DNA from: Spirochaetaceae bacterium
GTDB taxonomy: Bacteria; Spirochaetota; Spirochaetia; Treponematales; Breznakiellaceae
Direction of reading: 5' to 3'
Length of the DNA stretch: 41,096 nt
NCBI GenBank assembly: GCA_031265635.1
Contig: JAISCK010000033.1
Span: 1-41,096, forward strand
Shown: positions 8,490 to 20,682 of the stretch, piece after piece
How the letters are laid out: each line of letters begins with the position of its first letter
Position numbering within the stretch: position 1 is the stretch's first letter
Made by a program: the position numbers and the translations under genes
The notes under the pieces: generated by a model
The model's input: the letters and a program-made list of their open reading frames with translations, nothing else
Database searches by the model: none
What the model was told of the DNA's origin: nothing

Positions 8490-9839
8490 TTAATCCCCTG
8501 TATCCAGGTTTCGCAGATATTCAAGATACTCATTTACTGTTCTTCTTTCGAAGTCAAAAACCAGCGCCGCAAGATCATCCCTCCTTTTCTTATCAAGGCC
8601 CGCCTGTGATAAAGAGTTGAATTTCCAAACCAATTCTTCATCGTCAGGCCGCTCCCATTGGGTAAGTTCATGCTTCAGGTGGCTGCCGTTTTTAAGATAA
8701 ATTTCGACTACGGCCCCCCTTGTTCCCCAGGGGCCGTCTCCGTAGGCTTCGTTTTTTTCAACGTGTATCTTTTTACGCAGGGAAAGGTATTTTTCGTTTG
8801 TCAGGTTCTCCATGAAGAAAGCCTGGGGCATAAGATGGCCTTCCGTCAGGGCAAAGGCCGCCGTATACGAAAGAGAGAGCCGGGCGGAAGAAGGGTTAAG
8901 ATTCTCTCCGGCGCCCTGGTGAAGGGAATACGCATACGGATAGGTAGAGATGGTTAGCGATGCAATGTCCTCCGTCATTATGGGTGATTGGCGCCGCAGT
9001 TCAAGTATGGCGCTTACGGCAGGATGGACTGACTGGCAGGCGGAAAAGCGCTTGAAAGCCGCGCTGTCGATTAAATAGGGCTTTCCAAAGTCCGTATCAT
9101 CCTTGCCGCAAAAAATACCGGATAATGATTTTACCCCGTCCAGAATATGAGATGGTCCGGTGATTCCCCTTTTGGCGCTCTCGACAGCCAGCATGGCAAG
9201 ATATACGCCCCAGCCGCCGTAAAAATCTTTGGCGTCGCTGCCTTCAATAAAACTGATAAAAGGGCAGAGCGGAAGCAGCGCCCCGGTGATGCCAAAGACA
9301 TTGCATAACTGGTCAACGGAAAGCCCCGCAACAAGGCCGGCGGAAGCGGCGGCGCCAAACCCGCCTACAAGGCCGGGTCCATGGAGCCCCAGTTCCCGCG
9401 CTTTGAATGCCGCCATTGCCCCCAGCCTTGAAACAACATCGTAGCCAAAGATGATGCCGCGAAGCAGGCTGGCAGGGCCGCTGTTGTTTTCTTCCGCGGC
9501 AGCCAGCGCCGCCGAGATAACATATACTCCGGGATGGGCGGTCCCTGCGGGAAAATAGTCGTCCATTTCAATATTTGAAGTGCGGAGTGAATTGGCAAAG
9601 GCGGCCAGCGCGGGAGAAGTTTTGTTTTTGGAACCCCAGATGCTTGCACGGCCTCCTGTTCCTCCAAGACTTTCTATAAGATCAATGATTTTTGGCGTGA
9701 GTCTGCCGGCGGCGGAAAAGACCGCGCATCCTGTATAATCAAGAAGGCATCGTTTGGCCTGATGAAGCGTTTCCCGGTCAAAATCGCTCAATTCCAGGGA
9801 ATAGAAATGCTCCGAAATATTTCTGAAAAAGTTTTTCAC
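8490..9839 (-). CDS. MmgE/PrpD family protein (2-methylcitrate dehydratase superfamily), copy 1
   Basis: 449 aa. N-terminal LLDYTGCAVFSA-type motif and overall PrpD-like pattern. GTG start at 9839. Last gene of the minus-strand operon. Confidence 0.8.
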   Translation of the reverse strand: MKNFFRNISEHFYSLELSDFDRETLHQAKRCLLDYTGCAVFSAAGRLTPKIIDLIESLGGTGGRASIWGSKNKTSPALAAFANSLRTSNIEMDDYFPAGTAHPGVYVISAALAAAEENNSGPASLLRGIIFGYDVVSRLGAMAAFKARELGLHGPGLVGGFGAAASAGLVAGLSVDQLCNVFGITGALLPLCPFISFIEGSDAKDFYGGWGVYLAMLAVESAKRGITGPSHILDGVKSLSGIFCGKDDTDFGKPYLIDSAAFKRFSACQSVHPAVSAILELRRQSPIMTEDIASLTISTYPYAYSLHQGAGENLNPSSARLSLSYTAAFALTEGHLMPQAFFMENLTNEKYLSLRKKIHVEKNEAYGDGPWGTRGAVVEIYLKNGSHLKHELTQWERPDDEELVWKFNSLSQAGLDKKRRDDLAALVFDFERRTVNEYLEYLRNLDTGD

Positions 9840-9860
9840 CCGTTCTCTCTCAGGACTCTT

Positions 9861-10820
9861 TCAGGCGAGCCCGTTAATTTCCCGCACATAATGACACGCC
9901 GCAAAGTGGGCGGGAAATATTTCTTCGAGTACGGGGTATTCGGCGAAACATTTGTCCGTCGCGTAATCACAGCGGGCGGCGAAACGGCAGCCGGGCTTTG
10001 GCTCGATAGGGGAGGTAAGTTCCCCTTTAAGCAGTATCCGCCTCCTGCCGCTGTGGACGACCGGTTCTGGAATGGCGGCCAGCAGGGCCTTTGAATACGG
10101 ATGAAGCGTCTTTTCAAAGAGTTCGTCAGAGCCGCTTATTTCGGCGGTCATGCCAAGGTACATAACCATAATATCATCGGAGATATGCTTGACCACCGAA
10201 AGATTATGGGTGATAAACATATAGGTAAGTCCCTTGGCGTCCTGGAGATCCTGCATTAAATTTAATATCTGGGCCTGTATTGACACGTCAAGGGCCGAGA
10301 CAGGTTCATCACAAACAATAAATTTGGGCTGGAGAACCAGGGCCCTGGCTATGCCGATGCGCTGTCTCCTCCCTCCGTCAAGTTCATGGGGATAGGAATT
10401 TTCAAAGCGCTGCGCCAGCCCCACGGTATCCATAATTTCCGAGAGCTTATTGAGGACCTCCTTGCCGCTCCGGTACATATTATGAATTATCATCGGCTCT
10501 ATGATGGTTTCCTTGACGGTCATCCTGGGATTCAAGGATGAATAGGGGTCCTGAAAAATGATCTGCATGCGGCGTTTAAGATCATTGCTGTGTTTTTTAT
10601 TTGTTATTTCTTCTCCTTCAAAAAAGATGCTTCCTTCAGTGGCGTCAAGGAGACGTATAACAAGCCTGCCCAGGGTTGATTTTCCGCATCCTGATTCGCC
10701 TACCACGCCGAGGGTTTTTCCCTGGTTAATGGAAAACGAAAGTCCGTCAACCGCGTGCAGCATCCCGTGGGGAGTGCGAAAATATTTTTTTAGGTTTTTT
10801 ACTTCAAGAAAAGCTCCCAT
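9861..10820 (-). CDS. Opp/Dpp-type ABC transporter ATP-binding protein (OppF-like)
   Basis: Walker A GESGCGKST, signature ELDGGRRQR, Walker B FIVCDEP, and a C-terminal Cys-rich oligopeptide_C tail (GCRFAARC..DKC). Confidence 0.9.
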   Translation of the reverse strand: MGAFLEVKNLKKYFRTPHGMLHAVDGLSFSINQGKTLGVVGESGCGKSTLGRLVIRLLDATEGSIFFEGEEITNKKHSNDLKRRMQIIFQDPYSSLNPRMTVKETIIEPMIIHNMYRSGKEVLNKLSEIMDTVGLAQRFENSYPHELDGGRRQRIGIARALVLQPKFIVCDEPVSALDVSIQAQILNLMQDLQDAKGLTYMFITHNLSVVKHISDDIMVMYLGMTAEISGSDELFEKTLHPYSKALLAAIPEPVVHSGRRRILLKGELTSPIEPKPGCRFAARCDYATDKCFAEYPVLEEIFPAHFAACHYVREINGLA

Positions 10821-10835
10821 AATAATCCCTCCAGG

Positions 10836-11795
10836 CTAGTAAAGCAGACAGCGGACAAAATGTCCCTGAGAGACTTCCCGGTTTTCCGGTATGACAGTTT
10901 CACATTCAGGTTTTTTATCCTTGCAGCGGGTATGAAAGGCGCAGCCTGAAGGCAGATTGACAGGATCGGGCATGAGGCCGTATATGGGATTGAGACGGTG
11001 GATTTTCCCGGTCAGTTTCGGCAGTGAACCGAACAGGCCCTTTGTATAGGGATGACAGGTGTTGTTGTAAATATTTTCGAGGCTGCCCTTTTCGACAATG
11101 TGGCCCGCATACATGATGGCCACTTCATCGCATATTTCAGCGACTATGCCAAGGTCATGGGTAATAAGGATCATGGCGGTCTTGTATGTCTCCTGGAGTT
11201 GTCTCATCAATTCCAGTATCTGGGCCTGAATCGTAACATCAAGGGCCGTCGTCGGTTCATCGGCGATTATCATCTGCGGGTTACAGGCCAGGGCGATTGC
11301 TATCACGACCCGCTGTTTCATTCCTCCTGAAAACTGATGCGGGTATTCCCCCATGCGGTCGGAAGGGATTCCGACTATCTCAAGCATCCGGGCGGATTTC
11401 TTTTCGGCTTCCAGCCTGGAAGCCTTGTCATGGAGCCGTATTGCTTCGGCAATCTGTTCCCCTACGGTAATGACGGGGTTAAGCGAAGTCATGGGATCCT
11501 GAAAGATCATGGATGAATTTTTACCCCGGTGAAAGCGCATCTGCATCTTGTTGTATTTTAGAAGATTTTTTCCGTTAAAATAAATTTGTCCTGATACGAT
11601 TTTTCCGGGAGGGTCAGGAATAAGGCGCATCAGGCCCAGGGCAGTGGTGGTTTTTCCGGCGCCTGTCTCTCCCACAAGGCCGAGGGTTTTACCTTTTTCC
11701 AGGTCAAGGCTGATGCCGTTGACCGCCTTGACAGTTCCGTCGTCGGTAAAGTAGTGAATGACAAGATCTTTGACTGTCAAAAGTTTGGTATCCAT
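10836..11795 (-). CDS. Opp/Dpp-type ABC transporter ATP-binding protein (OppD-like)
   Basis: Walker A GETGAGKTT, signature FSGGMKQR, Walker B MIIADEP. I chose the start at MDTKLLTVKDL (11795); the track extension to 12107 overlaps the upstream permease gene. Confidence 0.9.
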   Translation of the reverse strand: MDTKLLTVKDLVIHYFTDDGTVKAVNGISLDLEKGKTLGLVGETGAGKTTTALGLMRLIPDPPGKIVSGQIYFNGKNLLKYNKMQMRFHRGKNSSMIFQDPMTSLNPVITVGEQIAEAIRLHDKASRLEAEKKSARMLEIVGIPSDRMGEYPHQFSGGMKQRVVIAIALACNPQMIIADEPTTALDVTIQAQILELMRQLQETYKTAMILITHDLGIVAEICDEVAIMYAGHIVEKGSLENIYNNTCHPYTKGLFGSLPKLTGKIHRLNPIYGLMPDPVNLPSGCAFHTRCKDKKPECETVIPENREVSQGHFVRCLLY

Positions 11796-11803: not shown

Positions 11804-12682
11804 CTATTTCTTGAGTTTTGGATCCAGCGCGTCGCGCAGTCCGTCGCCAAAGAGATTCAGCGCCAGAACCGTTATCATTATCGCCAGTCCGGGAAAGGCG
11901 ACCATGTACCACTGATCCCTGATAAAGGTCCGGGCCGATGAAAGCATGGCGCCCCATTCCGGCGTGGGAGGCTGAATGCCCAGGCCGAGAAAACTCAGCG
12001 AGGCGGCAAGTATTATGGCGGTTCCCACTCCCAGCGTCGCCTGTACGATAATGGGCGCCATGACATTGGGAAATATATACCGGATGATTATACGGGCATG
12101 GCTGCATCCTATGGCGCGGGCGGCCTCAACATATTCCTGGTCTTTTACCGTAAGGGTCGAAGCCCTGACCACCCGGGCGAAATTTGGTATTGAACTTACG
12201 GCTACGGCTATCATGGCATTGGCAAGGCCGGGGCCGAGGGTTGTGGCTATGGCTATGGCAAAGATCGTACGGGGAATGGACATAAGTATGTCCGTTATCC
12301 GCATGATAATAGTATCCGCAAGACCTCCGAAAAACCCCGCGATGGCGCCGAGTATGCTGCCTGAGAGGGCTCCAACGGAAAGGGAAATAAACCCTATGAG
12401 CAGCGAGATCCTTGTGCCGTATATTACGCGGCTCAGTATGTCCCTGCCAAAATTATCGGTCCCCATGGGATGTTTAAAAGAAGGAAACTGGGAAGTGCTG
12501 GAATAGTCCTGGAGATCATAGGGATAGGGGGCGATAAAGCCGGCGAAAACAGCGAGGAGTATCAAAAGAGCGAGCATGACAAGGCCCCATACGGCAAGTT
12601 TGTTGCGGCAGAGCCTGCGCCAGATGTCGCGGAATTGGCCGTGTTTTCTGAGAACGGTCCCCGGAGAGGTTTCCTTACGCAT
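11804..12682 (-). CDS. Opp/Dpp-type ABC transporter permease (OppC-like)
   Basis: 292 aa, six predicted TM segments, BPD_transp_1-type pattern. Overlaps the upstream permease gene by 8 nt. Confidence 0.9.
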   Translation of the reverse strand: MRKETSPGTVLRKHGQFRDIWRRLCRNKLAVWGLVMLALLILLAVFAGFIAPYPYDLQDYSSTSQFPSFKHPMGTDNFGRDILSRVIYGTRISLLIGFISLSVGALSGSILGAIAGFFGGLADTIIMRITDILMSIPRTIFAIAIATTLGPGLANAMIAVAVSSIPNFARVVRASTLTVKDQEYVEAARAIGCSHARIIIRYIFPNVMAPIIVQATLGVGTAIILAASLSFLGLGIQPPTPEWGAMLSSARTFIRDQWYMVAFPGLAIMITVLALNLFGDGLRDALDPKLKK

Positions 12683-13661
12683 TGTTTGGCGCCTCCTTCT
12701 CCGTTTCGGTCAGGGAAGTCTTGTGTTCCCTGCGGCGCGCGTACAGGGATCTGATACGGGGATCGACAAACGCGTATAAAAGGTCTATGAACAGGTTGAG
12801 AAAACTGAACATAAACGCTATGACGAGAACGCCGCCCCTGATGATGGGATAGTTCCGCGCTTTAATCGCGTCTACCATGAGCTTTCCGAGACCAGGAATC
12901 GCGAATATCTGTTCGTTCACAACAGCGCCGCTTAAAGCGCTGGCGAACTGTATGCCGATAACGGTGATGATGGGTATGAGTGCGTTTTTCAGGGCGTGCT
13001 TGAAAATTATCGAAGTTTCGCTCTTGCCTTTTGCCCTGGCTGTCCGTATGTAATCCTGGCGTATAACTTCCAGCATGCTTGAACGGGTCATGCGGGTTAT
13101 TGTCGCGATGGATACGGCGCTTATGCTGATAACCGGCATTATGTAATACAGGGCCCCGTACAATCCCGACGCCGGCAGCAGTCCCAGGCTTACCGAAAAA
13201 AACAGAATCAGTATGAGGGCCAGCCAGAAGTTGGGCATGGAAATGCCCAGCAGGGCCAGGACCATGGCGATATTGTCAAGAAATGAATACTGCCTGACCG
13301 CCGAAAGTATACCGAAGGGGATTCCTATAAGCATGGCAAAGATCATGCAAAAAACCGAAAGTTTGATGGTTACAGGCAGCCTGTTTTGTATCTCGGTGAG
13401 TACGGGCAGGCCGTTGGTAAAGGAGGTCCCCAAGTCTCCGCGGAAAAGGCCTTTAAGATACCGGAAATACTGGGTAAAGAAAGGATCGTCCAGGCCCATC
13501 TCGGCCCTCAGCGCGATTACTTCTTCCTGGGTTGCAAAATCGCCCAGCATAAGCTGCGCCGGGTCTCCCGGAGTAAAGAACATCATCGCAAAGATAATAA
13601 AGGTTACTCCCAGCAGTACCGGAATGGTGATGAGTATACGCTTAACTATATACCGCAACAT
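12675..13661 (-). CDS. Opp/Dpp-type ABC transporter permease (OppB-like)
   Basis: Classic N-terminus MLRYIVKRILITIP and an EAA-like loop (YIRTARAKG). Start set at 13661 because AGGAGAGG lies 6 nt upstream. Confidence 0.9.
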   Translation of the reverse strand: MLRYIVKRILITIPVLLGVTFIIFAMMFFTPGDPAQLMLGDFATQEEVIALRAEMGLDDPFFTQYFRYLKGLFRGDLGTSFTNGLPVLTEIQNRLPVTIKLSVFCMIFAMLIGIPFGILSAVRQYSFLDNIAMVLALLGISMPNFWLALILILFFSVSLGLLPASGLYGALYYIMPVISISAVSIATITRMTRSSMLEVIRQDYIRTARAKGKSETSIIFKHALKNALIPIITVIGIQFASALSGAVVNEQIFAIPGLGKLMVDAIKARNYPIIRGGVLVIAFMFSFLNLFIDLLYAFVDPRIRSLYARRREHKTSLTETEKEAPNNA

Positions 13662-13752: not shown

Positions 13753-15273
13753 TCAGTTTGTAAAACGTATTTTGGTGAGGTCGGGAACTCCCGACGGATT
13801 AAATTCAAAACCCGTAATATTCGCGTTAAGTCCGTACGCGAACTCGGGGAACGCTCCGGGAATAGCGTAGCATTTCTCATAGAGGTAATCCATCATATCC
13901 TCATACACTTTTGCCCGCCTGGCGGTATCGTATTCCCTTGCGCCGGCGTCAAGAAAATCCTGTATCTTCTGGTCTCCGTGGCGCAGGGATATGGTACGGG
14001 TAATGGGCCAGATATAGAGGGCCGCCGAAGGATCGGCCATGGCGGTACTGGGATTCATGTACGCGACGGGGATCTGGCCGGTATTGTTCATCGAGGTATA
14101 CGATGCAAGGTCGATGATGTTTACATGGGCTTTGATTCCGGCCTGGGACCACATGCTCTCCAGCACTTCGGCAACAGCCATGTATATCTGGTTCTCGTAG
14201 GTGTAGTACTGGAATTCGATGCCGTTGGGATAACCCGCTTCGGCAAGAAGCTGTTTTGCCTTTTCAGGATCGTAGGGCCTGGGGCCGACTTTCTTGTACC
14301 CCAGGAGGCCGGGAACCATAAAGGAATCGGCGACCTGGGCGGTTCCCTGGTACACTGTTTGTACCAGGGCGTCGAGGTTCAGGGCGTAGGCCATAGCCTC
14401 CCGGACCCTGATATCTTTGAACAGGTCAAATGAAGAGTTCATAAAGATTGTTGAGGTCTGCAGGGAAACCCCTTTTACAAGCTGGGTGTTTTTGCCGTTG
14501 GCAATCCTGTCCCAGTCCGAGGGGGACATATCAAAGGCATAGTCAATGCCGCCTGTTTCAAGCTCTATGGTCCTTGACGCGGCCTCGACAATAACACGGG
14601 CATTAACATTCTTAAAGGGAAGTTGTTCGCCCCAATAGCCGTCATAAGCGCTGAACTCGATGCGGTCGCCTGAAACCCACTGGACAAATTTCATGGGGCC
14701 TGTTCCCACGGGAGCCCTGCCGAAGGCTTCGGGCGTAGTCGCTTCGTACAGTTTTTTGCTGACTATGACCGCCCGGTAAGAGGCCAGCGCCTCAAAGAGC
14801 GGCGAGTAGGGATACTTGAGTTTTATCTGAATAGTATAATCGTCAATAACCCTGGTGGCGTCTCCGTCAATGGCGCCGAAGATAACGCTGTTAAAGGTAC
14901 TTGTGGCAAGCTGGGTAAGGGAGAATTTGACATCCTCGGCGGTCATCTTGCTGCCGTCATGAAAGGTAACATCATCCCTGAGCTTGAAGTCGAAAGTTGT
15001 GGGATCAATCTGGGTCCACTCTTTGGCAAGCCGGGGAAGGAAGGTCTCATTGGGCCCTTTGGTAATGAGGGTTTCAAAGATAAGGGTCGCAACGGTAAAT
15101 CCATACATGTGGGAATGGGAATAAGGCGCCAGTGTCTGGGGCTCATTCGTCATTGCCACTACCAGGGTTTCTTTCTGCGCCGGCTGTGGTTTTTTTGACC
15201 CGCCGCAGGCGCTAAATACCAAAAGCACACATCCTGCCAGTATTGCCGCCTGAATAAATCGTTTACTCAACAT
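13753..15273 (-). CDS. ABC transporter substrate-binding lipoprotein, family 5 (OppA/DppA/NikA class)
   Basis: Signal peptide with lipobox MLSKRFIQAAILAGCVLLVFSAC. About 500 aa mature, SBP_bac_5-like. Start at 15273 has AAGGAGG 6 nt upstream. Confidence 0.9.
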   Translation of the reverse strand: MLSKRFIQAAILAGCVLLVFSACGGSKKPQPAQKETLVVAMTNEPQTLAPYSHSHMYGFTVATLIFETLITKGPNETFLPRLAKEWTQIDPTTFDFKLRDDVTFHDGSKMTAEDVKFSLTQLATSTFNSVIFGAIDGDATRVIDDYTIQIKLKYPYSPLFEALASYRAVIVSKKLYEATTPEAFGRAPVGTGPMKFVQWVSGDRIEFSAYDGYWGEQLPFKNVNARVIVEAASRTIELETGGIDYAFDMSPSDWDRIANGKNTQLVKGVSLQTSTIFMNSSFDLFKDIRVREAMAYALNLDALVQTVYQGTAQVADSFMVPGLLGYKKVGPRPYDPEKAKQLLAEAGYPNGIEFQYYTYENQIYMAVAEVLESMWSQAGIKAHVNIIDLASYTSMNNTGQIPVAYMNPSTAMADPSAALYIWPITRTISLRHGDQKIQDFLDAGAREYDTARRAKVYEDMMDYLYEKCYAIPGAFPEFAYGLNANITGFEFNPSGVPDLTKIRFTN

Positions 15274-15301: not shown

Positions 15302-16381
15302 TTAAACGGAACGTGTCCGGTAATTTTTCGCCGCTGTGGAATTTCTGACAATGAGCGTCATGTCAAGTTTTATGTCGCCGGGATTAACGCCGTTTATCAG
15401 ACTGATGACCGTTTTAATGACGCGCTGTCCTATCTGGTACGAAGGCTGCCTTACCGAGGTAAGGGTAGGCCGGGCAATATTGGTGATGGCGCCGTCATCA
15501 AAACCAACTACCGATACCTGGTCGGGGACCAAAATATTCTGTTCCCTCAGGGACTGCAAAACTCCGGCGGCTACCCAGTCGTTGGCGCAGATTACCGCGT
15601 CAAAATCAATAAGGCTCGCCAAAAAAGCCTTCATGCTTTCATAACCGCTTTCGTAGTTATAGGCGGTAATGCGCAGAAGGCTCTTTTGTACATCAAGGTT
15701 GAATTCTTTCAGCGCGTCAATATAGCCCTGGAGACGGTCAAGGGACGAATAGACGCCCCTGGTTTTACCTTCCAGGAGCGTCATAAGGTAATCCGCGTCA
15801 TAACCGGGAGTTTCCCAGAAACCCGCGAAAAAGGCGATTCTGCGATGCCCCTGCTGCAGGAGATATTTTGTCGCCGTATAGCAGCCGCTTATGTTGTCAG
15901 GATAGACATGGGGCACATTTTCAATGAGGCCCCGGCGGGACGCGATAACGGTGGGCGTTTTTTGACTGACGGCGGATTTAAAATACTCAAGGCTGTCCGG
16001 GGAAACAGGGCAGTATATCAGGCCGCCTGAAAAAGAAGCCCTTACCATATCGATACATCTGATGTCGTTTTCGATATTTCCGTTGCTTTGATACACGGAA
16101 AGGCGGAGATTATGCTCCATGCAGGTATCGGCCGCTCCCTGGAGCAGCCCGGTAAAGAGGTTGGTCTCAAAGGTCGGCAGTATGATGCTGATGATATCGT
16201 TGGTTCCTGTACGGGTATACCGGGCGTTTAAGTTGGGAGCGTAGTTTGTCTCGGCTATAGCCTCTTCAACCTTTTTTTTGAGGACCTTGTTTACATTCTG
16301 GCGCTTGTTAAGAACCCGTGAGACGGTAGGAACTGAAACCCCGGCAATGCGGGCGACATCAACAATAGTCACCTTTTCCAA
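15302..16381 (-). CDS. LacI/GalR family transcriptional regulator
   Basis: N-terminal HTH VTIVDVARIAGVSVPTVSRVLN followed by a periplasmic-binding-protein-like effector domain. TTG (16381) or GTG (16372) start. Confidence 0.9.
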   Translation of the reverse strand: MEKVTIVDVARIAGVSVPTVSRVLNKRQNVNKVLKKKVEEAIAETNYAPNLNARYTRTGTNDIISIILPTFETNLFTGLLQGAADTCMEHNLRLSVYQSNGNIENDIRCIDMVRASFSGGLIYCPVSPDSLEYFKSAVSQKTPTVIASRRGLIENVPHVYPDNISGCYTATKYLLQQGHRRIAFFAGFWETPGYDADYLMTLLEGKTRGVYSSLDRLQGYIDALKEFNLDVQKSLLRITAYNYESGYESMKAFLASLIDFDAVICANDWVAAGVLQSLREQNILVPDQVSVVGFDDGAITNIARPTLTSVRQPSYQIGQRVIKTVISLINGVNPGDIKLDMTLIVRNSTAAKNYRTRSV

Positions 16382-16386: not shown

Positions 16387-17676
16387 TTATTCCTTTTTAA
16401 GGGATGCCCCCAGTCCTTCCATGGCTTCAAAAAAGCCGGGAAAAGAAACAGACGCGCACCCGGCGTCTTTGACCGAGGTCGTGCCGTCGGAGGCAAGGCC
16501 GCAGATCAGCATCGCCATGGCCACGCGGTGATCGTTATGGCTTTCGATTACCGTTCCGCGGGGCCGTCTGCCCCCGTAAACCGTCATCGTATCCGCGTTA
16601 CTTTCAACGCGGACGCCCGTTTTGGTTAATTCACAGCACATGACCTTTACCCGGTCGGTTTCCTTTAATCTGACCGCGGCAAGGCCGGTAAACACCGTAT
16701 CGCCTTCGGCAAACGCGGCTGCCACGGCAAGGGCGGGGAGGGCGTCGGGCGTATCGCGGAGATCAATGCGTATGCCCGACTTCATGGTTCTGCCTCCCCG
16801 GACTATAAGGCGTTTATTGGCAAAGTCTTTTTCTATATCGGCGCCCATCTGAATAAGAAAGTCAATGACCGCCTTGTCGCCGTGGGTGTCATTAAAGTCA
16901 ATTGAATCAACGGTGATCTCCGAATCGGAGACAAGCGCGGCTACCGCCGGGAAAGCCACGCCGGACCAGTCGCTGGCTATGGTTGTGTCGCATGGAGTAT
17001 AACGCTGTCCGCCCTTGACAAAAAAACGTTTGTAATCGGCGGATTTCTCCACGGAAACTCCGTATTTTTTCATCCAGTCCAGGGTCATGTCAAGATAGGG
17101 CTTTTCCCCCGGATCTTTTAAAAGAATTTCCGTGTCATTTTCCAGCAGGGGCGCGCTCATCAAAATCGACGTAACATACTGGGAGAGCAGTCCGTCAAGA
17201 CGGGCTGTCCCGCCCTTCATGGGACCCCGGATGATAACCGGGCAGGCGTCAACGCCGGGACGGGAGGTAAAGGCTTCGGCGCCAAGTTCAGTAAGGGCCG
17301 CAAGCAGGGCTTTAACCGGGCGCCTTCGTATTTGCTCATCACCGGTGATAAAGGTATAGCCGTCAACCAGGGCGGCCATCGAAGCGATAAAATAGGCGGT
17401 GGAACCGGAATTTCCGCAGTCAATGTAATTGTCCGGCAGTTTCAGGCCCGGAAGGGGCCCGGTAACAGTCCACAGTCCCGGCGCCCTGCTGACTATAGAG
17501 CCAAACATCTCCGCCGCGTCCAGGGCGCTGAGGGCGTCAAGACTGGGCACGGGATTGCGTATAACAGAGGTGCCCCTGCTTAGGGCAGAAAGAAGAACGG
17601 CCCTGATGGTATGGCTTTTTGACCCCGGAACCATAATACTGCCCCTGAGGGAAGATCGTACCGAGCTGACTGTCAT
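16387..17676 (-). CDS. aroA: EPSP-synthase-fold enolpyruvyl transferase (3-phosphoshikimate 1-carboxyvinyltransferase-like, class II type)
   Basis: Motifs VPGSKSHTIR, RRRPV, LSQYVTSILM, DTPDALPALAV, RLKETDR and NDHRVAMA are present. The GNSGTTxR loop reads GNSGSTAYF, with no Arg. The start overlaps the upstream stop as TAATG. Confidence 0.8.
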   Translation of the reverse strand: MTVSSVRSSLRGSIMVPGSKSHTIRAVLLSALSRGTSVIRNPVPSLDALSALDAAEMFGSIVSRAPGLWTVTGPLPGLKLPDNYIDCGNSGSTAYFIASMAALVDGYTFITGDEQIRRRPVKALLAALTELGAEAFTSRPGVDACPVIIRGPMKGGTARLDGLLSQYVTSILMSAPLLENDTEILLKDPGEKPYLDMTLDWMKKYGVSVEKSADYKRFFVKGGQRYTPCDTTIASDWSGVAFPAVAALVSDSEITVDSIDFNDTHGDKAVIDFLIQMGADIEKDFANKRLIVRGGRTMKSGIRIDLRDTPDALPALAVAAAFAEGDTVFTGLAAVRLKETDRVKVMCCELTKTGVRVESNADTMTVYGGRRPRGTVIESHNDHRVAMAMLICGLASDGTTSVKDAGCASVSFPGFFEAMEGLGASLKKE

Positions 17677-19052
17677 TACACGCGCTCCTTCAACAAGTCC
17701 GTAAGGGTCTTGTAAACATCATCGTTATAAAAACCGCTTTTATAACAGCTAATCCATTTTTCCACCGCAGAGTCAGGAAGAACAGAGGCGGTCAGATAGC
17801 GGAATTTTTCGATTAATTCATCCCTGGAAGGCGGCGATTCAGGGGACCAGGGCTGCGTCCGGCACGCGGTACATTTTTGCCCGTTTTGCAGCACGGCTTC
17901 GACCTCCACCGAATAGGGCGAAGGCGCCTTGTCCGCGCCGGGCCTCACCTGTATCCGTGACACCAGTTCCCCAAGGTCCTTTCTGGAACGCATACTAACG
18001 CCGTATTCCTCAAGGGTAAGTTTTCCCGCGATAAGCGCCGCGCCCAGGGTGTACGGGAGGCTGTACTGACAGGCCGTCTTTGCGTCAAAGCCCTCATGGG
18101 TATTGTACATGGCGAGGAAGGACGGGCCGTAAACAGTGATCTCCCTTACACTGCCGGGGGAGAATCCGTATTGTTCCCGTAAAGCGAGAAGCGCCGCCAC
18201 AGGCGCGTGAAACCAGCGATTGCAGGGATAGGGCTTAAAATAAGTCTCCATTATCGAAAAACGGCGGCCAAGACCGTCAAGCATAGCGTTACAGTCAGCG
18301 GCGCCGGGGGGCGGCAGTCCCAGCGCTGCGGCGAAACCGCAGGGGTCTTCAAGAACGCCGGAATCGCCCCGCAGATTAAGAAGCGAAAACCTGACGGCGT
18401 TTATGCCGAGATAGTTGGGCCATCCCGAATAAAGGGATTTCCCCCCGGCCCCCGAAATGCCTGTTGAATAAGTCCCCTGGGGAAAGAGCCCCGCGAGGGA
18501 CAGCGCGCCGGCGATTACCCCGGCATCAAGACCCGCCGCCTTGCCGTAGGCGGTAACAGCGGCGAAGGCTCCCATAACGCAGGGAAAATGTACGCTTCTG
18601 TTCAAAAGGCGGGGAGAAAAAAAACGGCTGATTCTGGTGCCTGTCTCATAGGCGGCGACGATAGCGCATATCAGTGTTTTGCCGTTACCGTTGTGCATGA
18701 CATTAGAAAAGTACGCCGCCGGTATGGAAGCGCTGCCCCAATGCCCGGCCAGGGAAACGCCGTCATCATATTCAAGCTCATAACCCAGGCAGCCGGTGAG
18801 CAGCGCCGCTTCGGCAACGCCGCATTGTATGCCAAGCCCCCAGACCGTTACATCGGGACTGGGATTTATCGCCGCGAGTTTAGCGGGGAAGGCGGGATCG
18901 TCAAGGTATTTGAGGGCGCCAAAATAACAACCCGCGAAATCAAAAAAACAGTCGCATGCCTTTTGGACAAGCTCTCCGGGGAGAGCGGAAAAATCGAGCT
19001 TCTCCGCAAAAAGAGCCAGCCGGTCAAGTACCGTATTTCCTGAATCCTTCAC
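17676..19052 (-). CDS. MmgE/PrpD family protein, copy 2
   Basis: 458 aa, with the same family pattern as 8490-9839 (FDFAGCYFGA near the N-terminus). GTG start at 19052. First gene of the operon. Confidence 0.8.
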   Translation of the reverse strand: MKDSGNTVLDRLALFAEKLDFSALPGELVQKACDCFFDFAGCYFGALKYLDDPAFPAKLAAINPSPDVTVWGLGIQCGVAEAALLTGCLGYELEYDDGVSLAGHWGSASIPAAYFSNVMHNGNGKTLICAIVAAYETGTRISRFFSPRLLNRSVHFPCVMGAFAAVTAYGKAAGLDAGVIAGALSLAGLFPQGTYSTGISGAGGKSLYSGWPNYLGINAVRFSLLNLRGDSGVLEDPCGFAAALGLPPPGAADCNAMLDGLGRRFSIMETYFKPYPCNRWFHAPVAALLALREQYGFSPGSVREITVYGPSFLAMYNTHEGFDAKTACQYSLPYTLGAALIAGKLTLEEYGVSMRSRKDLGELVSRIQVRPGADKAPSPYSVEVEAVLQNGQKCTACRTQPWSPESPPSRDELIEKFRYLTASVLPDSAVEKWISCYKSGFYNDDVYKTLTDLLKERV

Positions 19053-19066
19053 CCTGTTCCCCGCAA

Positions 19067-19082
19067 TGATATAACGTTTTCA
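19067..19082. promoter_or_regulatory. Operator-like site 1 (tgatATAACGTTTTCa, reverse complement of the GAAAACGTTAT core)
   Basis: One of three exact copies of an 11 nt core with a central CG. It lies about +8 to +23 relative to the predicted minus-strand promoter. Confidence 0.55.
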
Positions 19083-19096
19083 AAAAAGCAGATAAA

Positions 19097-19125
19097 AGTA
19101 TATAGCGCGCAGATTTTTTTGTCAA
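19097..19125 (-). promoter_or_regulatory. Sigma70-like promoter of the nine-gene minus-strand operon
   Basis: On the minus strand: TTGACA (19125-19120), 17 nt spacer, TATACT (19102-19097). Confidence 0.55.
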
Positions 19126-19150
19126 CGGCATGATATTTTTTTATAAAATA

Positions 19151-19166
19151 AGAAAACGTTATATTG
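19151..19166. promoter_or_regulatory. Operator-like site 2 (aGAAAACGTTATattg)
   Basis: Second exact copy of the core, located between the two divergent -35 elements. Confidence 0.55.
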
Positions 19167-19207
19167 ATGAAAAAATCGAAAAAAAGATAATAACGCAAAA
19201 TTTGTCA

Positions 19208-19236
19208 TTGATATACGGTAATAATACCTGTATACT
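19208..19236 (+). promoter_or_regulatory. Sigma70-like promoter of the divergent permease gene
   Basis: TTGATA (19208-19213), 17 nt spacer, TATACT (19231-19236). Confidence 0.5.
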
Positions 19237-19265
19237 GGGATAAAATATGATTATTCAAATAGTAA

Positions 19266-19281
19266 AGAAAACGTTATCACA
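19266..19281. promoter_or_regulatory. Operator-like site 3 (aGAAAACGTTATcaca)
   Basis: Third exact copy of the core, about +23 to +38 of the plus-strand promoter and upstream of the 19306 start. Confidence 0.55.
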
Positions 19282-19305
19282 TTTCGTTGTACAGGCGGGA
19301 AAACA

Positions 19306-20682
19306 GTGGCGCATAGCAAGGACATGCTAAGACGGCGGGGGTTCAGGTTTTTTTTAAGCCTGGTTTTTCCCTGCCTGATACTGATCGTGAGGCCGTTTCA
19401 TATACGCTTTGACCAGGCAATGGTGCTGGCCTCCCTTGTGCTTGTCGTTACCTGGTGGTCCTCCGGAATTACCGGGAAAATACCCGCTTCCTGTTTCCTG
19501 CTTGGCGCATTTGCCTGTTTTGGTTCAGCCCCCCTCAGAACGGTTTTTTCCTTTCCATTATCTGAGAATTTCTATCTTATCTGTTTTTCGTATCTCTTTT
19601 CCCAGGGCATAAAAAAATCAGGTTTTGCCGAAAAAACCCTGGAACCCCTTTTGCTCCGTTATGTAAATACTTCCTTTAAGGTTCTTGTTTCGGTCTTCCT
19701 TGTTTTAGCGGTAACTATACCGGTGATCCCCCAGCCCCTGGCCCGGCTCATCATTGTCGCCGAAATATACCGTAATTATCTTGAAAAAACCGGCGCGTCA
19801 GGACCGCAGAAGGATTTTTTGCTTTTTGCCGTTTTTCAGGTATACGCGATTGTCAACGGCGTTTCCATAAACGCGGATATAATATTGAATACATCTGCCG
19901 TGGGATTCTCCGGCCTTGCGCTCACCAACGCGCAATGGATACGCGGCATGGCCCTCCCTACGGCGGTTTTCTGCGTTCTTACCATAGCCATGCTTGGCCT
20001 GTTTGAGCGTTTCATGGTGCGCGGGCCCGTTCTCCGCGTCAGGGAAGAAAAGAAAACAGCGACAGCGCCTTTAGGAAAAAAAGACCGCGCCGCTTTTCTC
20101 CTGATAGGCATAACGGTGCTTTTCTGGATAAGCGGTCCCCTTCACCATATAAACCACACGCTGATAACCATTACCGGAGTTTTGCTGATGTTTGTTTTCG
20201 GTATTTTGAAATTTGAAGATCTCAAAGCCATAGATATCAGTACCATGGTCTTTCTTAGCGCCGCCTTCGCCATAGGCGGCGTTATGAAGTCAAGCGGCAT
20301 AGCCGACGTGGTTTTTTCCCGCGTCGAAAGCGTATTCCCGCCTGAATATTCGGCCCTGTATATCCTGGTCATAATCTTCGTTACCATGGGCATGCATATA
20401 TTTCTGGGAAGCAATACCACAACCATGTCGGTGGTTCTTCCGCCGCTCCTGATGATATGCGGAAAAAAGCTGCCCGGAGAAGCCGTACTGTATATTGTGT
20501 ATGTAAGCCTCATGGCCCATTATCTTTTGCCCTTTCATTCCGTGGCCATGATGATAGGCGCGGGAAATAATTACTTTCCCGCCAGACTGGTGAGCCGTAT
20601 GGGAATACCCGCCATGCTGCTCATATTTTTTGTTATTTTCTTTGTCTTTCTGCCCTGGTGGCGTTTCATCGGGCTCCTCTAA
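19306..20682 (+). CDS. DASS/ArsB-like anion permease (ion-transporter superfamily; di/tricarboxylate or similar)
   Basis: 458 aa polytopic protein with a central charged loop. It has a GSNTTTM hairpin-tip motif (SNT-type, as in DASS carriers) and a degenerate first copy (LNTSA). GTG start at 19306; an ATG at 19324 is an alternative. Confidence 0.7.
   Translation: MAHSKDMLRRRGFRFFLSLVFPCLILIVRPFHIRFDQAMVLASLVLVVTWWSSGITGKIPASCFLLGAFACFGSAPLRTVFSFPLSENFYLICFSYLFSQGIKKSGFAEKTLEPLLLRYVNTSFKVLVSVFLVLAVTIPVIPQPLARLIIVAEIYRNYLEKTGASGPQKDFLLFAVFQVYAIVNGVSINADIILNTSAVGFSGLALTNAQWIRGMALPTAVFCVLTIAMLGLFERFMVRGPVLRVREEKKTATAPLGKKDRAAFLLIGITVLFWISGPLHHINHTLITITGVLLMFVFGILKFEDLKAIDISTMVFLSAAFAIGGVMKSSGIADVVFSRVESVFPPEYSALYILVIIFVTMGMHIFLGSNTTTMSVVLPPLLMICGKKLPGEAVLYIVYVSLMAHYLLPFHSVAMMIGAGNNYFPARLVSRMGIPAMLLIFFVIFFVFLPWWRFIGLL

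What the first reader, a model, noticed from the sequence alone, without database searches (positions are those of the whole stretch)
8490..20682. LacI-controlled nine-gene operon joining two MmgE/PrpD enzymes, an EPSP-synthase-fold enzyme and an Opp-type importer, with a divergent DASS-like permease
Nine minus-strand genes are packed with gaps of -8 to +28 nt. The order is PrpD-like, AroA-like, LacI, SBP5 lipoprotein, two permeases, two ATPases, PrpD-like. They face a DASS-like anion permease across one shared regulatory region.

MmgE/PrpD proteins act on hydroxy/amino polycarboxylates: 2-methylcitrate dehydratase, cis-aconitate decarboxylase, iminodisuccinate epimerase. EPSP-synthase-fold enzymes transfer enolpyruvyl groups. 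Family-5 binding proteins import peptides, opines, metallophores and, in Thermotogae, oligosaccharides. LacI regulators usually sense sugar-like effectors.

I know of no characterised pathway that uses this enzyme combination. The inference is an uptake and conversion route for an unknown carboxylated or sugar-acid-like compound.
Basis: partly seen in the sequence, partly recalled or inferred. Interest (0 to 1): 0.75.

Follow-up and report, generated by a model that had tools for sequence, protein, structure and literature searches.

The report
EPSP-synthase/PrpD uptake operon under LacI
A real nine-gene operon, shared between spirochaetes and gut clostridia, couples two organic-acid importers and two uncharacterised PrpD-family enzymes to an apparently genuine shikimate-pathway enzyme (EPSP synthase), so it probably feeds an imported plant-type acid into aromatic amino-acid synthesis, although no gene has been tested.

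Summary
Nine co-directional minus-strand genes (PrpD1, AroA, LacI, SBP5 lipoprotein, OppB, OppC, OppD, OppF, PrpD2) face a DASS permease across a 253-bp region. That region holds two strong promoter-like sites and three exact copies of GAAAACGTTAT, a LacI-type operator found nowhere else in the window.

The cluster recurs in termite-type spirochaete contigs and in Clostridia MAGs (Angelakisella, Hungatella and unnamed others), with the same operator motif in several.

The main correction concerns AroA. It is not an enolpyruvyl transferase of unknown acceptor:
- It passes NCBI's aroA equivalog model and keeps 13 of 17 E. coli EPSPS ligand or catalytic positions.
- It sits in an AroA clade whose members lie beside LacI regulators and anion importers (TctCBA, DASS, Opp), and often beside AroD, AroE, AroC or AroK.
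- One sister locus (L047) has the same DASS, Opp, AroA and LacI genes but carries AroE, AroD and AroC instead of PrpD.

Both PrpD subfamilies are small. PrpD1 lies beside AroA in every locus examined. PrpD2 travels with the Opp module.

My best reading is a LacI-repressed module that imports a hydroaromatic or shikimate-pathway precursor and passes it through EPSP synthase. What the PrpD enzymes do is unresolved. I found no paper describing this arrangement.

The parts
19306..20682 (+). DASS-like (IT-superfamily) anion permease, transcribed divergently from the operon
   Evidence: It matches Pfam PF00939 at 65 bits (cutoff 27) and PF03600. TIGR00785 scores 74.5, below its cutoff of 198.6. No PDB chain matches by sequence. 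Orthologues at 40-63% identity lie in L005, L047, L016, L017, L022 and L026-28, always next to AroA and LacI.
19053..19305 (.). Shared regulatory region holding two divergent promoter-like sites and three LacI-type operators
   Evidence: The minus-strand promoter-like site has -35 TTGACA at 19120-19125 and -10 TATACT at 19097-19102 (11 of 12 matches). The plus-strand site has -35 TTGATA at 19208-19213 and -10 TATACT at 19231-19236 (10 of 12). The operator GAAAACGTTAT occurs at 19071-19081(-), 19152-19162(+) and 19267-19277(+), and nowhere else in the window.
19071..19081 (-). Operator 1, just downstream of the -10 of the operon promoter
   Evidence: It is an exact 11-mer. The related palindrome GAAAACGTTTTC lies upstream of the equivalent operons in L005, L016 (twice), L017, L022 and L026 (twice).
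19152..19162 (+). Operator 2, central, between the two -35 boxes
19267..19277 (+). Operator 3, downstream of the -10 of the DASS promoter
17676..19052 (-). PrpD1: MmgE/PrpD-family enzyme of a small subfamily that lies beside EPSP synthase in every locus examined
   Evidence: Both Pfam domains match and there is no NCBIfam hit. The family has about 52 clusters at 39% identity or more, then drops to 29%. Members at 40-45% identity all lie in LacI-MFS-TctCBA-EPSPS-PrpD loci. The nearest solved structures are IDS epimerase and cis-aconitate decarboxylase.
16387..17676 (-). AroA: EPSP synthase (3-phosphoshikimate 1-carboxyvinyltransferase), with its start codon overlapping the PrpD1 stop
   Evidence: PF00275 matches at 3.8e-96. 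TIGR01356 scores 380 against a cutoff of 287. Identity to E. coli AroA is 32% in the alignment and 33% by tblastn, and solved EPSPS chains match at E 3e-57 or weaker. Thirteen of 17 ligand or catalytic positions are kept. It belongs to the Opp-linked clade in the NJ tree.
15302..16381 (-). LacI-family repressor, the presumed binder of the three operators
   Evidence: The HTH and periplasmic-binding-protein-like domains are present. No NCBIfam equivalog reaches its cutoff. Relatives at 30-67% identity lie next to AroA in more than 20 loci.
13753..15273 (-). Family-5 solute-binding lipoprotein of the ABC importer
   Evidence: PF00496 matches at 1e-83. A signal peptide and lipobox are present. 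The best solved relatives are 5u4o, YliB/GsiB, AgaA, AccA and NikA. All named equivalogs score below their cutoffs.
12675..13661 (-). OppB-type permease
   Evidence: It is 65-74% identical to the copies in the non-spirochaete (clostridial and unassigned) loci.
11804..12682 (-). OppC-type permease
   Evidence: It is 72-78% identical to the copies in the non-spirochaete loci.
10836..11795 (-). OppD-type ATPase
9861..10820 (-). OppF-type ATPase
8490..9839 (-). PrpD2: second MmgE/PrpD-family enzyme, from a subfamily that travels with the Opp module
   Evidence: Both Pfam domains match. The PrpD equivalogs score only 20-33 bits against cutoffs of 458-950. It is 24% identical to PrpD1. The family has about 42 clusters at 39% identity or more. 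Members lie next to SBP5 and Opp genes in L001, L016, L020-22, L105 and L106.
20714..20753 (.). Long hairpin with T and A runs after the DASS gene, a likely bidirectional terminator
   Evidence: It has an 18-bp stem and is the strongest terminator-like site in 8000-21500.

Best explanation
This is a LacI-repressed uptake and assimilation module tied to the lower shikimate pathway, and it has moved between phyla.

**Proposed mechanism**
- Without the effector, the LacI protein binds three GAAAACGTTAT operators. One lies just downstream of each divergent promoter and one lies between them. This shuts off both the nine-gene operon and the DASS permease.
- When the effector is present, two importers are made: a family-5 ABC system and a DASS permease. 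The effector is probably the imported acid or a derivative, a cyclitol-carboxylate type compound such as quinate, shikimate or a conjugate.
- The imported compound is converted to a trunk intermediate, and the operon's own EPSP synthase turns shikimate 3-phosphate plus PEP into EPSP on the way to chorismate.
- Co-inducing AroA with uptake would keep shikimate 3-phosphate from piling up when precursor is abundant.
- The two PrpD-family proteins are taken to be cofactor-independent dehydratases, isomerases or decarboxylases acting on carboxylates. PrpD2 would act on the Opp-imported compound, and PrpD1 directly before or after AroA.
- They may do the job that AroD and AroE do in sister clusters. 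One option is a dehydroquinate-type beta-elimination, which resembles the 2-methylcitrate dehydratase reaction.

**Shown versus inferred**
- Shown: gene content, conserved synteny, the operator motif, AroA family membership and residues, and the association of this AroA clade with aro genes and anion importers.
- Inferred: the direction of flux, the identity of the substrate, the effector and every PrpD activity.
For: 1. AroA is a bona fide-type EPSPS. It passes TIGR01356 and keeps 13 of 17 ligand or catalytic positions.
2. In an NJ tree the Opp-linked AroAs form one clade, nested among AroAs that lie beside TctCBA, DASS, LacI, AroD, AroE, AroC and AroK.
3. L047 reads LysR-AroE-AroD-DASS-SBP5-OppBCDF-AroA-LacI-AroC. 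Its SBP5, DASS and LacI are 52%, 51% and 51% identical to the window's. Among non-spirochaete loci this equals or exceeds every PrpD-type locus.
4. L023-25 read AroD-AroE-EamA-AroA-AroC-TctCBA. L008 and L009 (Lawsonibacter, Oscillospiraceae) carry TctCBA, AroA, AroD, AroE and AroC. L007 (Fusibacter ferrireducens) has two Tct systems, two AroD genes, AroA and a chorismate-mutase/shikimate-kinase fusion.
5. L105 places chorismate synthase directly upstream of an SBP5-OppBCDF-FADox-PrpD2 block.
6. A minimal unit, TctCBA-AroA-LacI-DASS, sits between housekeeping genes in L026 and carries the same operator twice.
7. The operator GAAAACGTT[AT]T(C) is shared by PrpD-type, AroD/E-type and minimal loci.
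8. PrpD1 relatives at 36-65% identity lie next to AroA in every locus examined. At least 15 PrpD1-family and 6 PrpD2-family clusters share a longest-contig length with an AroA hit.
9. Both PrpD subfamilies keep invariant Asp, His, Lys and Arg residues, so they are probably active enzymes.
10. No upper-pathway gene (AroB) appears in any of these loci, which fits entry below dehydroquinate synthase.
Against: - The window has no AroK, AroC, AroD, AroE or AroB, so the pathway cannot be closed from this sequence.
- Shikimate kinase lies between any imported hydroaromatic and AroA, yet it is almost never in these clusters.
- TTT, DASS and NikA/GsiB/AgaA-like binding proteins usually carry di- or tricarboxylates, peptides or opines. 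Quinate and shikimate are monocarboxylates.
- PrpD-type chemistry needs a proton alpha to a carboxylate. Direct dehydration of quinate to shikimate therefore does not fit, and a dehydroquinate-type reaction would still need a dehydrogenase that the operon lacks.
- The PrpD versus AroD/E exclusion is 15, 9 and 0 loci (PrpD only, AroD/E only, both). About 1.3 loci with both are expected over all AroA loci, so this is not significant alone, and the loci are not independent.
- The Hungatella version adds a PatB C-S lyase and a PepV-like dipeptidase. L106 has Opp and PrpD2 without AroA, near metal-homeostasis genes. Both point to a peptide-like or chelator-like Opp substrate.
- Whether the genome has a second aroA is unknown.
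Confidence: 0.5

Rival explanations
1. This is an aromatic amino-acid supply regulon with a biosynthetic logic. LacI would work with a co-repressor, as PurR does, and would switch on uptake systems and pathway enzymes when aromatic end products are scarce. The PrpD proteins would be non-homologous stand-ins for a step after chorismate, for example a prephenate dehydratase or decarboxylase. That reaction removes CO2 from a beta,gamma-unsaturated acid, as cis-aconitate decarboxylase does. The importers would bring in end products, keto-acid precursors or peptides.
For: - AroA and AroC link to the cluster.
- The nearest solved relatives of PrpD1 and PrpD2 include cis-aconitate decarboxylase.
- PurR and CcpA are among the closest solved LacI relatives.
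- The Opp components resemble peptide importers.
- L007 carries a chorismate-mutase/shikimate-kinase fusion in the same island.
Against: - No T-box or other amino-acid-sensing leader was found in 13 sources searched, which included eight loci carrying the Opp or PrpD modules plus sister aro-type loci.
- No PheA, TyrA or Trp genes were seen in the annotated neighbourhoods.
- AroD and AroE in sister loci point to entry upstream of AroA rather than to a downstream role.
- No evidence bears on co-repressor versus inducer.
Confidence: 0.15
2. The Opp and PrpD part is a catabolic or salvage system for an aminopolycarboxylate, opine, metallophore or succinated thiol. Examples are iminodisuccinate-like compounds, S-(2-succino)cysteine or glutathione conjugates. 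The PrpD enzymes would epimerise or cleave a C-N, C-S or C-O bond to a dicarboxyethyl group. DASS would handle the released dicarboxylate. AroA would be co-regulated for a reason unrelated to the imported compound.
For: - IDS epimerase is the best solved match for both PrpDs, followed by B. subtilis IRG1 (7bra). From memory, 7bra is YxeQ. YxeQ is encoded in the S-(2-succino)cysteine operon, and its function is listed as unknown (PMC9706529).
- The best named SBP5 relatives are GsiB, NikA, CntA, AgaA and AccA.
- Hungatella adds a PatB C-S lyase, a PepV-like dipeptidase and a DAO-type flavoprotein.
- L106 has Opp and PrpD2 alone, near cation-efflux, Fur and CsoR-type genes.
Against: - This reading does not explain why PrpD1 lies beside EPSP synthase in every locus examined, even with a TctCBA and MFS uptake set and no Opp.
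- It does not explain why the Opp, DASS and LacI scaffold occurs with AroE, AroD and AroC and no PrpD in L047.
- It does not explain why AroC abuts the Opp-PrpD2 block in L105.
- The accessory C-S lyase and dipeptidase are absent from the window.
Confidence: 0.17
3. EPSP synthase runs in reverse as a catabolic, energy-conserving step. An imported enolpyruvyl ether would be split with phosphate to give PEP and an alcohol. A PrpD enzyme would first create the enol ether, for example by an enolase-like dehydration of a 2-O-substituted glycerate. The second transporter would export the alcohol.
For: - Minimal units hold only transporters, AroA and LacI (L026-28), or transporters, AroA and PrpD (L102-104). 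These look like self-contained one- or two-enzyme pathways.
- Two transporters recur per locus.
- The EPSPS reaction is reversible (established enzymology).
Against: - Sister loci carry AroD, AroE, AroC, AroK and chorismate mutase, which only make sense in the biosynthetic direction.
- Thirteen of 17 EPSPS ligand or catalytic positions are unchanged, including five of the nine shikimate-3-phosphate contacts. The departures are clade-wide, so there is no sign of a new acceptor.
- I know of no abundant natural enolpyruvyl ether substrate.
Confidence: 0.08
4. The adjacency is a coincidence. An ordinary housekeeping aroA simply happens to lie inside an unrelated transporter operon.
For: - AroA looks like a normal EPSPS.
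- A 55%-identical Treponema AroA (L018) stands alone near dnaA.
Against: - The same neighbours recur across two phyla, in several gene orders and with three different transporter types.
- The AroA tree follows the cluster type rather than taxonomy.
- Start and stop codons overlap or lie within a few bases.
- The operator motif is shared across loci.
Confidence: 0.03

Closest known systems
Firmicute-type aro operons and EPSP synthase (AroA, TIGR01356)
   Same: AroA here is a full-length EPSPS. It passes the equivalog cutoff and keeps 13 of 17 E. coli ligand or catalytic positions. Relatives at 51-57% identity lie beside AroD, AroE and AroC.
   Different: No other aro gene lies in the 41-kb window. 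The gene is embedded between a PrpD-family gene and a LacI regulator, inside an ABC-importer operon. The whole clade differs from E. coli at four ligand positions: S169 is deleted, S197 is E, N336 is A, H or V, and K411 is V. Members inside aro clusters share these changes.
Quinate/shikimate utilisation clusters (qsuABCD with QsuR in Corynebacterium, qui/pca in Acinetobacter; recalled from the literature)
   Same: Both are inducible units that combine a dedicated transporter, a regulator and enzymes acting on hydroaromatic acids. Sister loci here contain type I dehydroquinase and a shikimate or quinate dehydrogenase.
   Different: Those clusters are aerobic, catabolic routes to protocatechuate with MFS transport and LysR or IclR control, and none includes AroA. 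Here the route points to EPSP and chorismate, with LacI control and Opp, DASS or TTT uptake. In this window PrpD-family enzymes stand where AroD and AroE do elsewhere.
MmgE/PrpD family: 2-methylcitrate dehydratase, cis-aconitate decarboxylase (IRG1/CAD), iminodisuccinate epimerase, B. subtilis YxeQ
   Same: Both Pfam domains are present. The Asp, His, Lys and Arg positions are invariant across both subfamilies. The best solved matches are IDS epimerase, B. subtilis IRG1 (7bra) and CAD.
   Different: Phmmer E-values to solved members are only 1e-8 to 1e-19. The PrpD equivalogs fail by a wide margin. There is no prpB or prpC context. The two subfamilies are discrete and small, and they are tied to AroA or to Opp. 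No member has a known activity.
Opp/Dpp/Nik-type (PepT family) ABC importers, including GsiABCD, NikABCDE, Cnt and the opine systems AgaA and AccA
   Same: The five-component architecture is present, with an SBP_bac_5 lipoprotein, OppB_N and OppC_N permease domains, and oligo_HPY ATPase tails.
   Different: No named equivalog reaches its cutoff. Control is by a LacI-type repressor. The genomic partners are shikimate-pathway genes rather than peptidases, ureases or opine oxidases.
TyrR-type aromatic regulons (E. coli; recalled from the literature)
   Same: One regulator would coordinate aromatic-pathway enzymes with transporters.
   Different: The regulator family differs (LacI rather than TyrR). 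The genes are clustered rather than dispersed. The transporter types and the PrpD enzymes have no counterpart.

Membership tests
EPSP synthase (AroA; TIGR01356 / PF00275) | Full-length match above the curated cutoffs of the family models | tested here: met
   PF00275 scores 322.8 bits against a cutoff of 22.8. The TIGR01356 equivalog scores 380.3 against 287.25. The MurA models score 60-71 bits against cutoffs of 297-393, so it is not MurA.
EPSP synthase (AroA; TIGR01356 / PF00275) | Residues that bind shikimate 3-phosphate and PEP and carry out catalysis (E. coli numbering, recalled from the UniProt/HAMAP annotation) | tested here: inconclusive
   K22, S23, R27, G96, R124, S170, Q171, D313, K340, E341, R344, H385 and R386 are kept. 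S169 is deleted, S197 is E, N336 is A and K411 is V. These four departures occur throughout the clade, including members inside aro gene clusters, so they do not argue against EPSPS.
EPSP synthase (AroA; TIGR01356 / PF00275) | Genomic association with other shikimate-pathway genes | tested here: inconclusive
   No AroB, AroD, AroE, AroK or AroC homologue lies in the window. Clade members in L007-9, L023-25, L029, L047 and L095 lie beside AroD, AroE, AroC or AroK.
EPSP synthase (AroA; TIGR01356 / PF00275) | Catalysis of shikimate 3-phosphate plus PEP to EPSP plus phosphate | not testable with these tools
   This needs an enzyme assay or aroA complementation.
MmgE/PrpD family | N- and C-terminal family domains above cutoff | tested here: met
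   PrpD1 scores 104.4 and 65.6 bits. PrpD2 scores 147.6 and 83.5 bits. The cutoff is 32.1 for both domains.
2-methylcitrate dehydratase PrpD (TIGR02330, NF006943, NF042438) | Equivalog-level match and a prpBC (methylcitrate cycle) context | tested here: not met
   PrpD1 has no NCBIfam hit. PrpD2 scores 20-33 bits against cutoffs of 458-950. No prpB or prpC-type gene lies in the window.
LacI/GalR family repressor | N-terminal LacI HTH, a periplasmic-binding-protein-like effector domain, and a cognate CG-centred palindromic operator near the regulated promoters | tested here: met
   PF00356, PF13377 and PF00532 all match. Three GAAAACGTTAT sites lie at the two promoter-like sites. The palindrome GAAAACGTTTTC occurs in orthologous loci. 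Binding itself was not tested.
Opp/Dpp/Nik (PepT-family) ABC importer | Family-5 binding protein, two permeases and two ATPases with the oligo_HPY tail | tested here: met
   One search shows all five components. A lipoprotein signal is present on the binding protein.
Named Opp-family systems (GsiB, NikA, DppA, OppA, CntA, SapA) | Equivalog score for the binding protein | tested here: not met
   The best hit is GsiB at 172 bits against a cutoff of 594. NikA scores 166 against 393. All others are lower relative to their cutoffs.
DASS (divalent anion:Na+ symporter) family | Family model match | tested here: inconclusive
   PF00939 scores 65.4 bits, above its cutoff of 27. The TIGR00785 subfamily model scores 74.5, below its cutoff of 198.6. 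No solved homologue is detectable by sequence.
Catabolic quinate/shikimate (qsu/qui) cluster | Quinate or shikimate dehydrogenase, dehydroquinate dehydratase and dehydroshikimate dehydratase | tested here: not met
   None of these lies in the window. AroD and AroE occur only in sister loci. AP_endonuc_2 proteins, which could be dehydroshikimate dehydratase-like, occur in L007, L047 and L103.

The most novel reading that the evidence does not exclude
PrpD1 and PrpD2 are new enzymes of a shikimate-pathway entry route. They would be cofactor-independent carboxylate dehydratases or isomerases, in effect a third kind of dehydroquinate-type dehydratase or a converter of a plant hydroaromatic conjugate.

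Together with a dedicated EPSP synthase, they would let gut and termite-gut anaerobes build chorismate from imported plant acids such as quinate, instead of making it de novo. That would supply the first gene handles for the long-observed but genetically unassigned gut microbial metabolism of quinic acid.
Probability: 0.2. Interest if true: 0.8.

Novelty: new variant of a known kind. Interest (0 to 1): 0.62.

Why it matters
Three points would matter if the main reading holds.

- **A new uptake-coupled shikimate module.** A whole clade of EPSP synthases in anaerobes (Clostridia, spirochaetes) is wired to organic-acid importers and a LacI repressor. I did not find this organisation described. 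It implies that many gut anaerobes top up or replace the upper shikimate pathway with imported precursors.
- **Two functionally empty enzyme subfamilies with a testable context.** The two PrpD subfamilies are small and discrete. One lies beside AroA in every locus examined and the other travels with the Opp module.
- **A link to gut quinic acid metabolism.** Relatives occur in Lawsonibacter and Oscillospiraceae. A 2024 cohort study linked Lawsonibacter to coffee and quinic acid and stated that the enzymes of gut quinic acid metabolism are mostly unknown (PMC11602726).

The result also bears on predictions of glyphosate sensitivity and of aromatic amino-acid auxotrophy from gut metagenomes. A transporter-linked aroA is not evidence of a complete de novo pathway.

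Tried and rejected
- **Diagnostic AroA substitutions.** I first read S197E, N336A, K411V and the S169 deletion as signs of a new acceptor. I rejected this because the same states occur across the clade, including AroAs next to AroC, AroK, AroD and AroE.
- **Direct quinate-to-shikimate dehydration by PrpD.** It is attractive because PrpD dehydrates a tertiary alpha-hydroxy acid. I set it aside on chemical grounds: the proton to be removed is not alpha to a carboxylate. A dehydroquinate-type substrate fits better.
- **PrpD versus AroD/E mutual exclusion as proof of displacement.** The counts are 15, 9 and 0 loci (PrpD only, AroD/E only, both). This is not significant, and the loci are not independent. 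An earlier impression that AroC never occurs with PrpD was overturned by L105.
- **MFS permease of L102-104 as a ShiA-type shikimate carrier.** It shows no similarity to E. coli ShiA (E 0.54). It gives only a weak PgtP-like hit of 43 bits against a cutoff of 408.
- **T-box or riboswitch control.** None was found in 13 sources.
- **P0162 (709 aa) as a PrpD-AroA fusion.** It is a PrpD1/PrpD2 chimera or deletion product, not a Rosetta-stone fusion.
- **Literature.** Seven full-text searches found no description of an AroA, PrpD and LacI arrangement. A succinamopine Ti-plasmid paper only mentions an mmgE gene in passing.
- **Exact-sequence lookup of the window's AroA.** It found no contig, so the source genome could not be recovered.

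Full report

Yes. The ORF map and Pfam scan give nine minus-strand genes. In transcription order they are:
- PrpD1 (17676-19052)
- AroA (16387-17676)
- LacI (15302-16381)
- a family-5 binding protein (13753-15273 after start refinement)
- OppB (12675-13661)
- OppC (11804-12682)
- OppD (10836-11795)
- OppF (9861-10820)
- PrpD2 (8490-9839)

A Na_sulph_symp/CitMHS permease (19306-20682) is transcribed the other way. The binding protein has a signal peptide ending in a lipobox. Junctions run from an 8-nt overlap to a 28-nt gap, except for a 67-91 nt spacer after the binding-protein gene. PrpD2 converges on an FAA-hydrolase gene with only 5 nt between the stop codons.

**2. The regulatory region**

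The 253-bp divergent region holds the two best sigma-70-like sites found in 8000-21500:
- Minus strand: TTGACA, 17 nt, TATACT (11 of 12 matches).
- Plus strand: TTGATA, 17 nt, TATACT (10 of 12 matches).

It also holds three exact copies of GAAAACGTTAT, at 19071(-), 19152(+) and 19267(+). These are the only matches in the 41-kb window even when one mismatch is allowed. About 0.6 such matches are expected by chance.

One copy lies just downstream of each -10 box, and the third lies between the two -35 boxes. The motif is a CG-centred imperfect palindrome of the LacI/cre type. This layout is what a LacI repressor controlling both transcription units would need. Binding was not tested. A long hairpin follows the DASS gene (20714-20753), and no convincing terminator lies inside the operon.

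**3. Is the arrangement conserved?**

Yes, and across phyla. The closest AroA relatives (75-76% identity) lie on a JGI contig (L005) and in a Spirochaetaceae MAG contig (L006). Both show the window's gene order as far as the contigs reach.

Clostridia MAGs and unassigned contigs carry the same parts in other orders:
- Angelakisella (L016) and L020-22: SBP5-OppBCDF-PrpD1-PrpD2-AroA, with a divergent LacI. DASS follows LacI in L016, L021 and L022. L020 ends before that point.
- L017: the same with only a PrpD1-type gene.
- Hungatella (L001): DASS, PatB C-S lyase, SBP5-OppBCDF, an FAD enzyme, PrpD2, AroA, LacI and a PepV-like dipeptidase.

The Opp membrane and ATPase subunits are 65-78% identical between this spirochaete-type window and the non-spirochaete loci. 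That is high for such distant lineages. AroA groups by cluster type rather than by taxonomy. I infer that the cluster has moved horizontally.

**4. What is the AroA copy?**

It passes NCBI's aroA equivalog model (380 bits, cutoff 287). It matches solved EPSP synthases at E-values of 3e-57 or weaker.

An alignment of about 95 homologues from the fetched loci shows that K22, S23, R27, G96, R124, S170, Q171, D313, K340, E341, R344, H385 and R386 (E. coli numbering) are all kept. Four differences from E. coli first looked interesting: S169 deleted, S197E, N336A and K411V. They are common to the whole clade, including members embedded among aro genes. I see no sequence sign of a changed acceptor.

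**5. The decisive context evidence**

I fetched about 100 loci around AroA relatives and screened them with the window's proteins and with AroB, AroD, AroE, AroK, AroC and TctABC queries. AroAs at 43-57% identity repeatedly lie beside a LacI regulator and an anion importer:
- TctCBA-AroA-LacI-DASS in L026, sitting between UvrD-type helicase, GAPDH and glycine-cleavage genes.
- TctCBA-AroA-DASS in L027 and L028.
- TctCBA-AroA-LacI in L037.
- An AroA-LacI pair in L033, L035, L039, L044 and L045.

Many also carry true shikimate genes:
- L023-25: AroD-AroE-EamA-AroA-AroC-TctCBA.
- L008 and L009 (Lawsonibacter, Oscillospiraceae): TctCBA, AroA, AroD, AroE and AroC.
- L007 (Fusibacter ferrireducens): two Tct systems, two AroD genes, AroA and a chorismate-mutase/shikimate-kinase fusion.

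The most telling locus is L047: LysR-AroE-AroD-DASS-SBP5-OppBCDF-AroA-LacI-AroC. Its binding protein, DASS and LacI are 52%, 51% and 51% identical to the window's. Among non-spirochaete loci this equals or exceeds every PrpD-type locus. Its AroA falls inside the Opp-linked clade.

The operator motif or close variants precede the operons in L005, L016, L017, L022, L026, L031 and L047. The same transport and regulator scaffold therefore occurs with AroE, AroD and AroC, with PrpD enzymes, or with AroA alone.

**6. The PrpD proteins**

The two are only 24% identical and belong to separate, small subfamilies.

PrpD1:
- About 52 database clusters at 39% identity or more, then a drop to 29%.
- Three distant members chosen for long contigs (40-45% identity) all lie in LacI, MFS, TctCBA, EPSPS, PrpD units.
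- L038 and L046 show the same AroA-PrpD pair.

PrpD2:
- About 42 clusters.
- It follows the Opp module, next to AroA in L001, L016 and L020-22.
- In L105 chorismate synthase lies just upstream of the Opp genes.
- In L106 it occurs with SBP5 and OppBC only.

Matching longest-contig lengths between the three homologue tables suggest at least 15 (PrpD1) and 6 (PrpD2) further co-occurrences with AroA. This is indirect evidence.

Neither protein reaches any PrpD equivalog. The nearest solved structures are iminodisuccinate epimerase, B. subtilis IRG1 (7bra) and cis-aconitate decarboxylase. From memory, 7bra is YxeQ. E94, D97, H104, Y135, R140, H155, K205, Y208, W211 and K273 are invariant across 24 sequences from both subfamilies. 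By recollection of the CAD literature, several of these match the family's active-site positions. Both proteins are therefore probably active on carboxylate substrates.

**7. Most likely mechanism**

The operon is a LacI-repressed unit. It imports an anionic precursor through the Opp-type system and the DASS permease, and passes it through a dedicated EPSP synthase towards chorismate. The precursor is most simply a hydroaromatic acid of the quinate or shikimate type, or a conjugate of one.

Co-inducing AroA with uptake makes physiological sense, because it would stop shikimate 3-phosphate from accumulating. The PrpD enzymes plausibly prepare the imported compound (PrpD2) and act next to AroA (PrpD1). 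They may replace AroD and AroE.

I give about 0.5 to the general statement and only about 0.2-0.3 to any specific PrpD role.

Weak points:
- No shikimate kinase is present.
- The transporter families usually carry di- or tricarboxylates, peptides or opines.
- PrpD chemistry needs a proton alpha to a carboxylate. This argues against direct quinate dehydration and only loosely fits dehydroquinate.
- The PrpD versus AroD/E exclusion (15, 9 and 0 loci) is not statistically significant.

**8. Rival readings**

- An aromatic supply regulon of biosynthetic logic, with PrpD standing in for a post-chorismate step such as prephenate dehydratase or decarboxylase (0.15).
- Catabolism or salvage of an aminopolycarboxylate, opine, metallophore or succinated thiol, with AroA only co-regulated (0.17). 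This is supported by the IDS-epimerase and B. subtilis IRG1 (7bra) relationship, the GsiB, NikA and AgaA-like binding protein, the Hungatella C-S lyase and dipeptidase, and L106. It does not explain the PrpD1-AroA pairing or L047 and L105.
- Reverse, PEP-yielding EPSPS on an enolpyruvyl ether (0.08). The aro genes in sister loci contradict it.
- Chance adjacency (0.03).

**9. Comparison with known systems**

The parts are ordinary members of known families: EPSPS, LacI, a PepT-type ABC importer, DASS and MmgE/PrpD. The combination is not ordinary. It resembles inducible quinate and shikimate clusters in logic, but it points into biosynthesis rather than to protocatechuate, and it uses different transporters and regulators.

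Full-text searches found no description of an AroA, PrpD and LacI arrangement, or of Tct, DASS or Opp importers linked to aroA. A 2024 paper on Lawsonibacter and coffee states that the enzymes of gut quinic acid metabolism are mostly unknown. I rate the finding a new variant of a known kind, with interest 0.62.

**10. Caveats**

- The tree is neighbour-joining on tblastn-derived segments, without bootstrap support.
- The locus sample is shaped by the search patterns, and most loci come from MAGs or metagenome contigs.
- The source genome of the window could not be recovered, so a second aroA, aroK and the upper pathway could not be checked.
- No expression or biochemical data exist.

Noticed in passing
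window 46-8484 (+): A plus-strand run of eight genes precedes the operon. They are a PanE/ApbA-like reductase, a 446-aa protein with no Pfam match, a BKACE beta-keto-acid cleavage enzyme, an SDR, an acetate/butyrate-kinase-like protein, a thiolase, a metallo-beta-lactamase-fold protein and an FAA-hydrolase-family protein. It looks like a separate fermentative or beta-keto-acid pathway. It converges on PrpD2 with only 5 nt between the stop codons.
   Followed up: partly
window 22516-24444 and 24697-26661 (+): Two tandem flavoproteins carry FMN_bind and FAD_binding_2 domains (fumarate or urocanate-reductase-like). They are about 40% identical to each other. A similar protein starts locus L104. 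These may be soluble ene-reductases. Any link to the operon is unknown.
   Followed up: no
window 22045-22118 (+): A tRNA gene lies between the acyltransferase gene and the first flavoprotein gene.
   Followed up: no
window 29866-33360 (+): A 1164-aa ORF has no Pfam match. It overlaps the end of uvrA and is followed by PhoH, a 7TM-HD protein, CorC and a TPR protein.
   Followed up: no
L001 722-1909 and 12391-13758 (Hungatella MAG): The Hungatella version of the cluster adds a PatB-family C-S lyase (TIGR04350, 473 bits against a cutoff of 340) and a Sapep/PepV-type dipeptidase. This pair of enzymes processes Cys-Gly S-conjugates in other bacteria. It hints that the Opp substrate may be peptide- or thiol-conjugate-like in that lineage.
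   Followed up: partly
L106 6666-11362: A unit of SBP5, OppB, OppC and PrpD2 has no AroA, LacI or ATPase genes. It lies near cation-efflux, Fur and CsoR-type genes. This shows that the Opp-PrpD2 pair can exist on its own, possibly in a metal-related setting.
   Followed up: partly
L023 15766-16593 and L047 13853-14686: A protein of about 275 aa with a 4Fe-4S domain recurs next to the Tct or AroC genes of two aro-type sister clusters. Its function is unknown.
   Followed up: no
L007 3977-4780, L047 16916-17737, L103 15058-15954: Xylose-isomerase-like TIM-barrel proteins (AP_endonuc_2) recur near these clusters. From memory, this fold includes dehydroshikimate dehydratases.
   Followed up: no
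P0162 (709 aa, metagenome protein): This protein joins the first two-thirds of a PrpD1-type protein to most of a PrpD2-type protein. It is probably a deletion or assembly join between adjacent genes, not a designed fusion.
   Followed up: partly
L003, L007, L018 AroA (E. coli position 171): Three AroAs of the clade have Pro in place of the conserved Gln171. They come from Geosporobacter, Fusibacter and a Treponema MAG. The consequence for activity is unknown.
   Followed up: no
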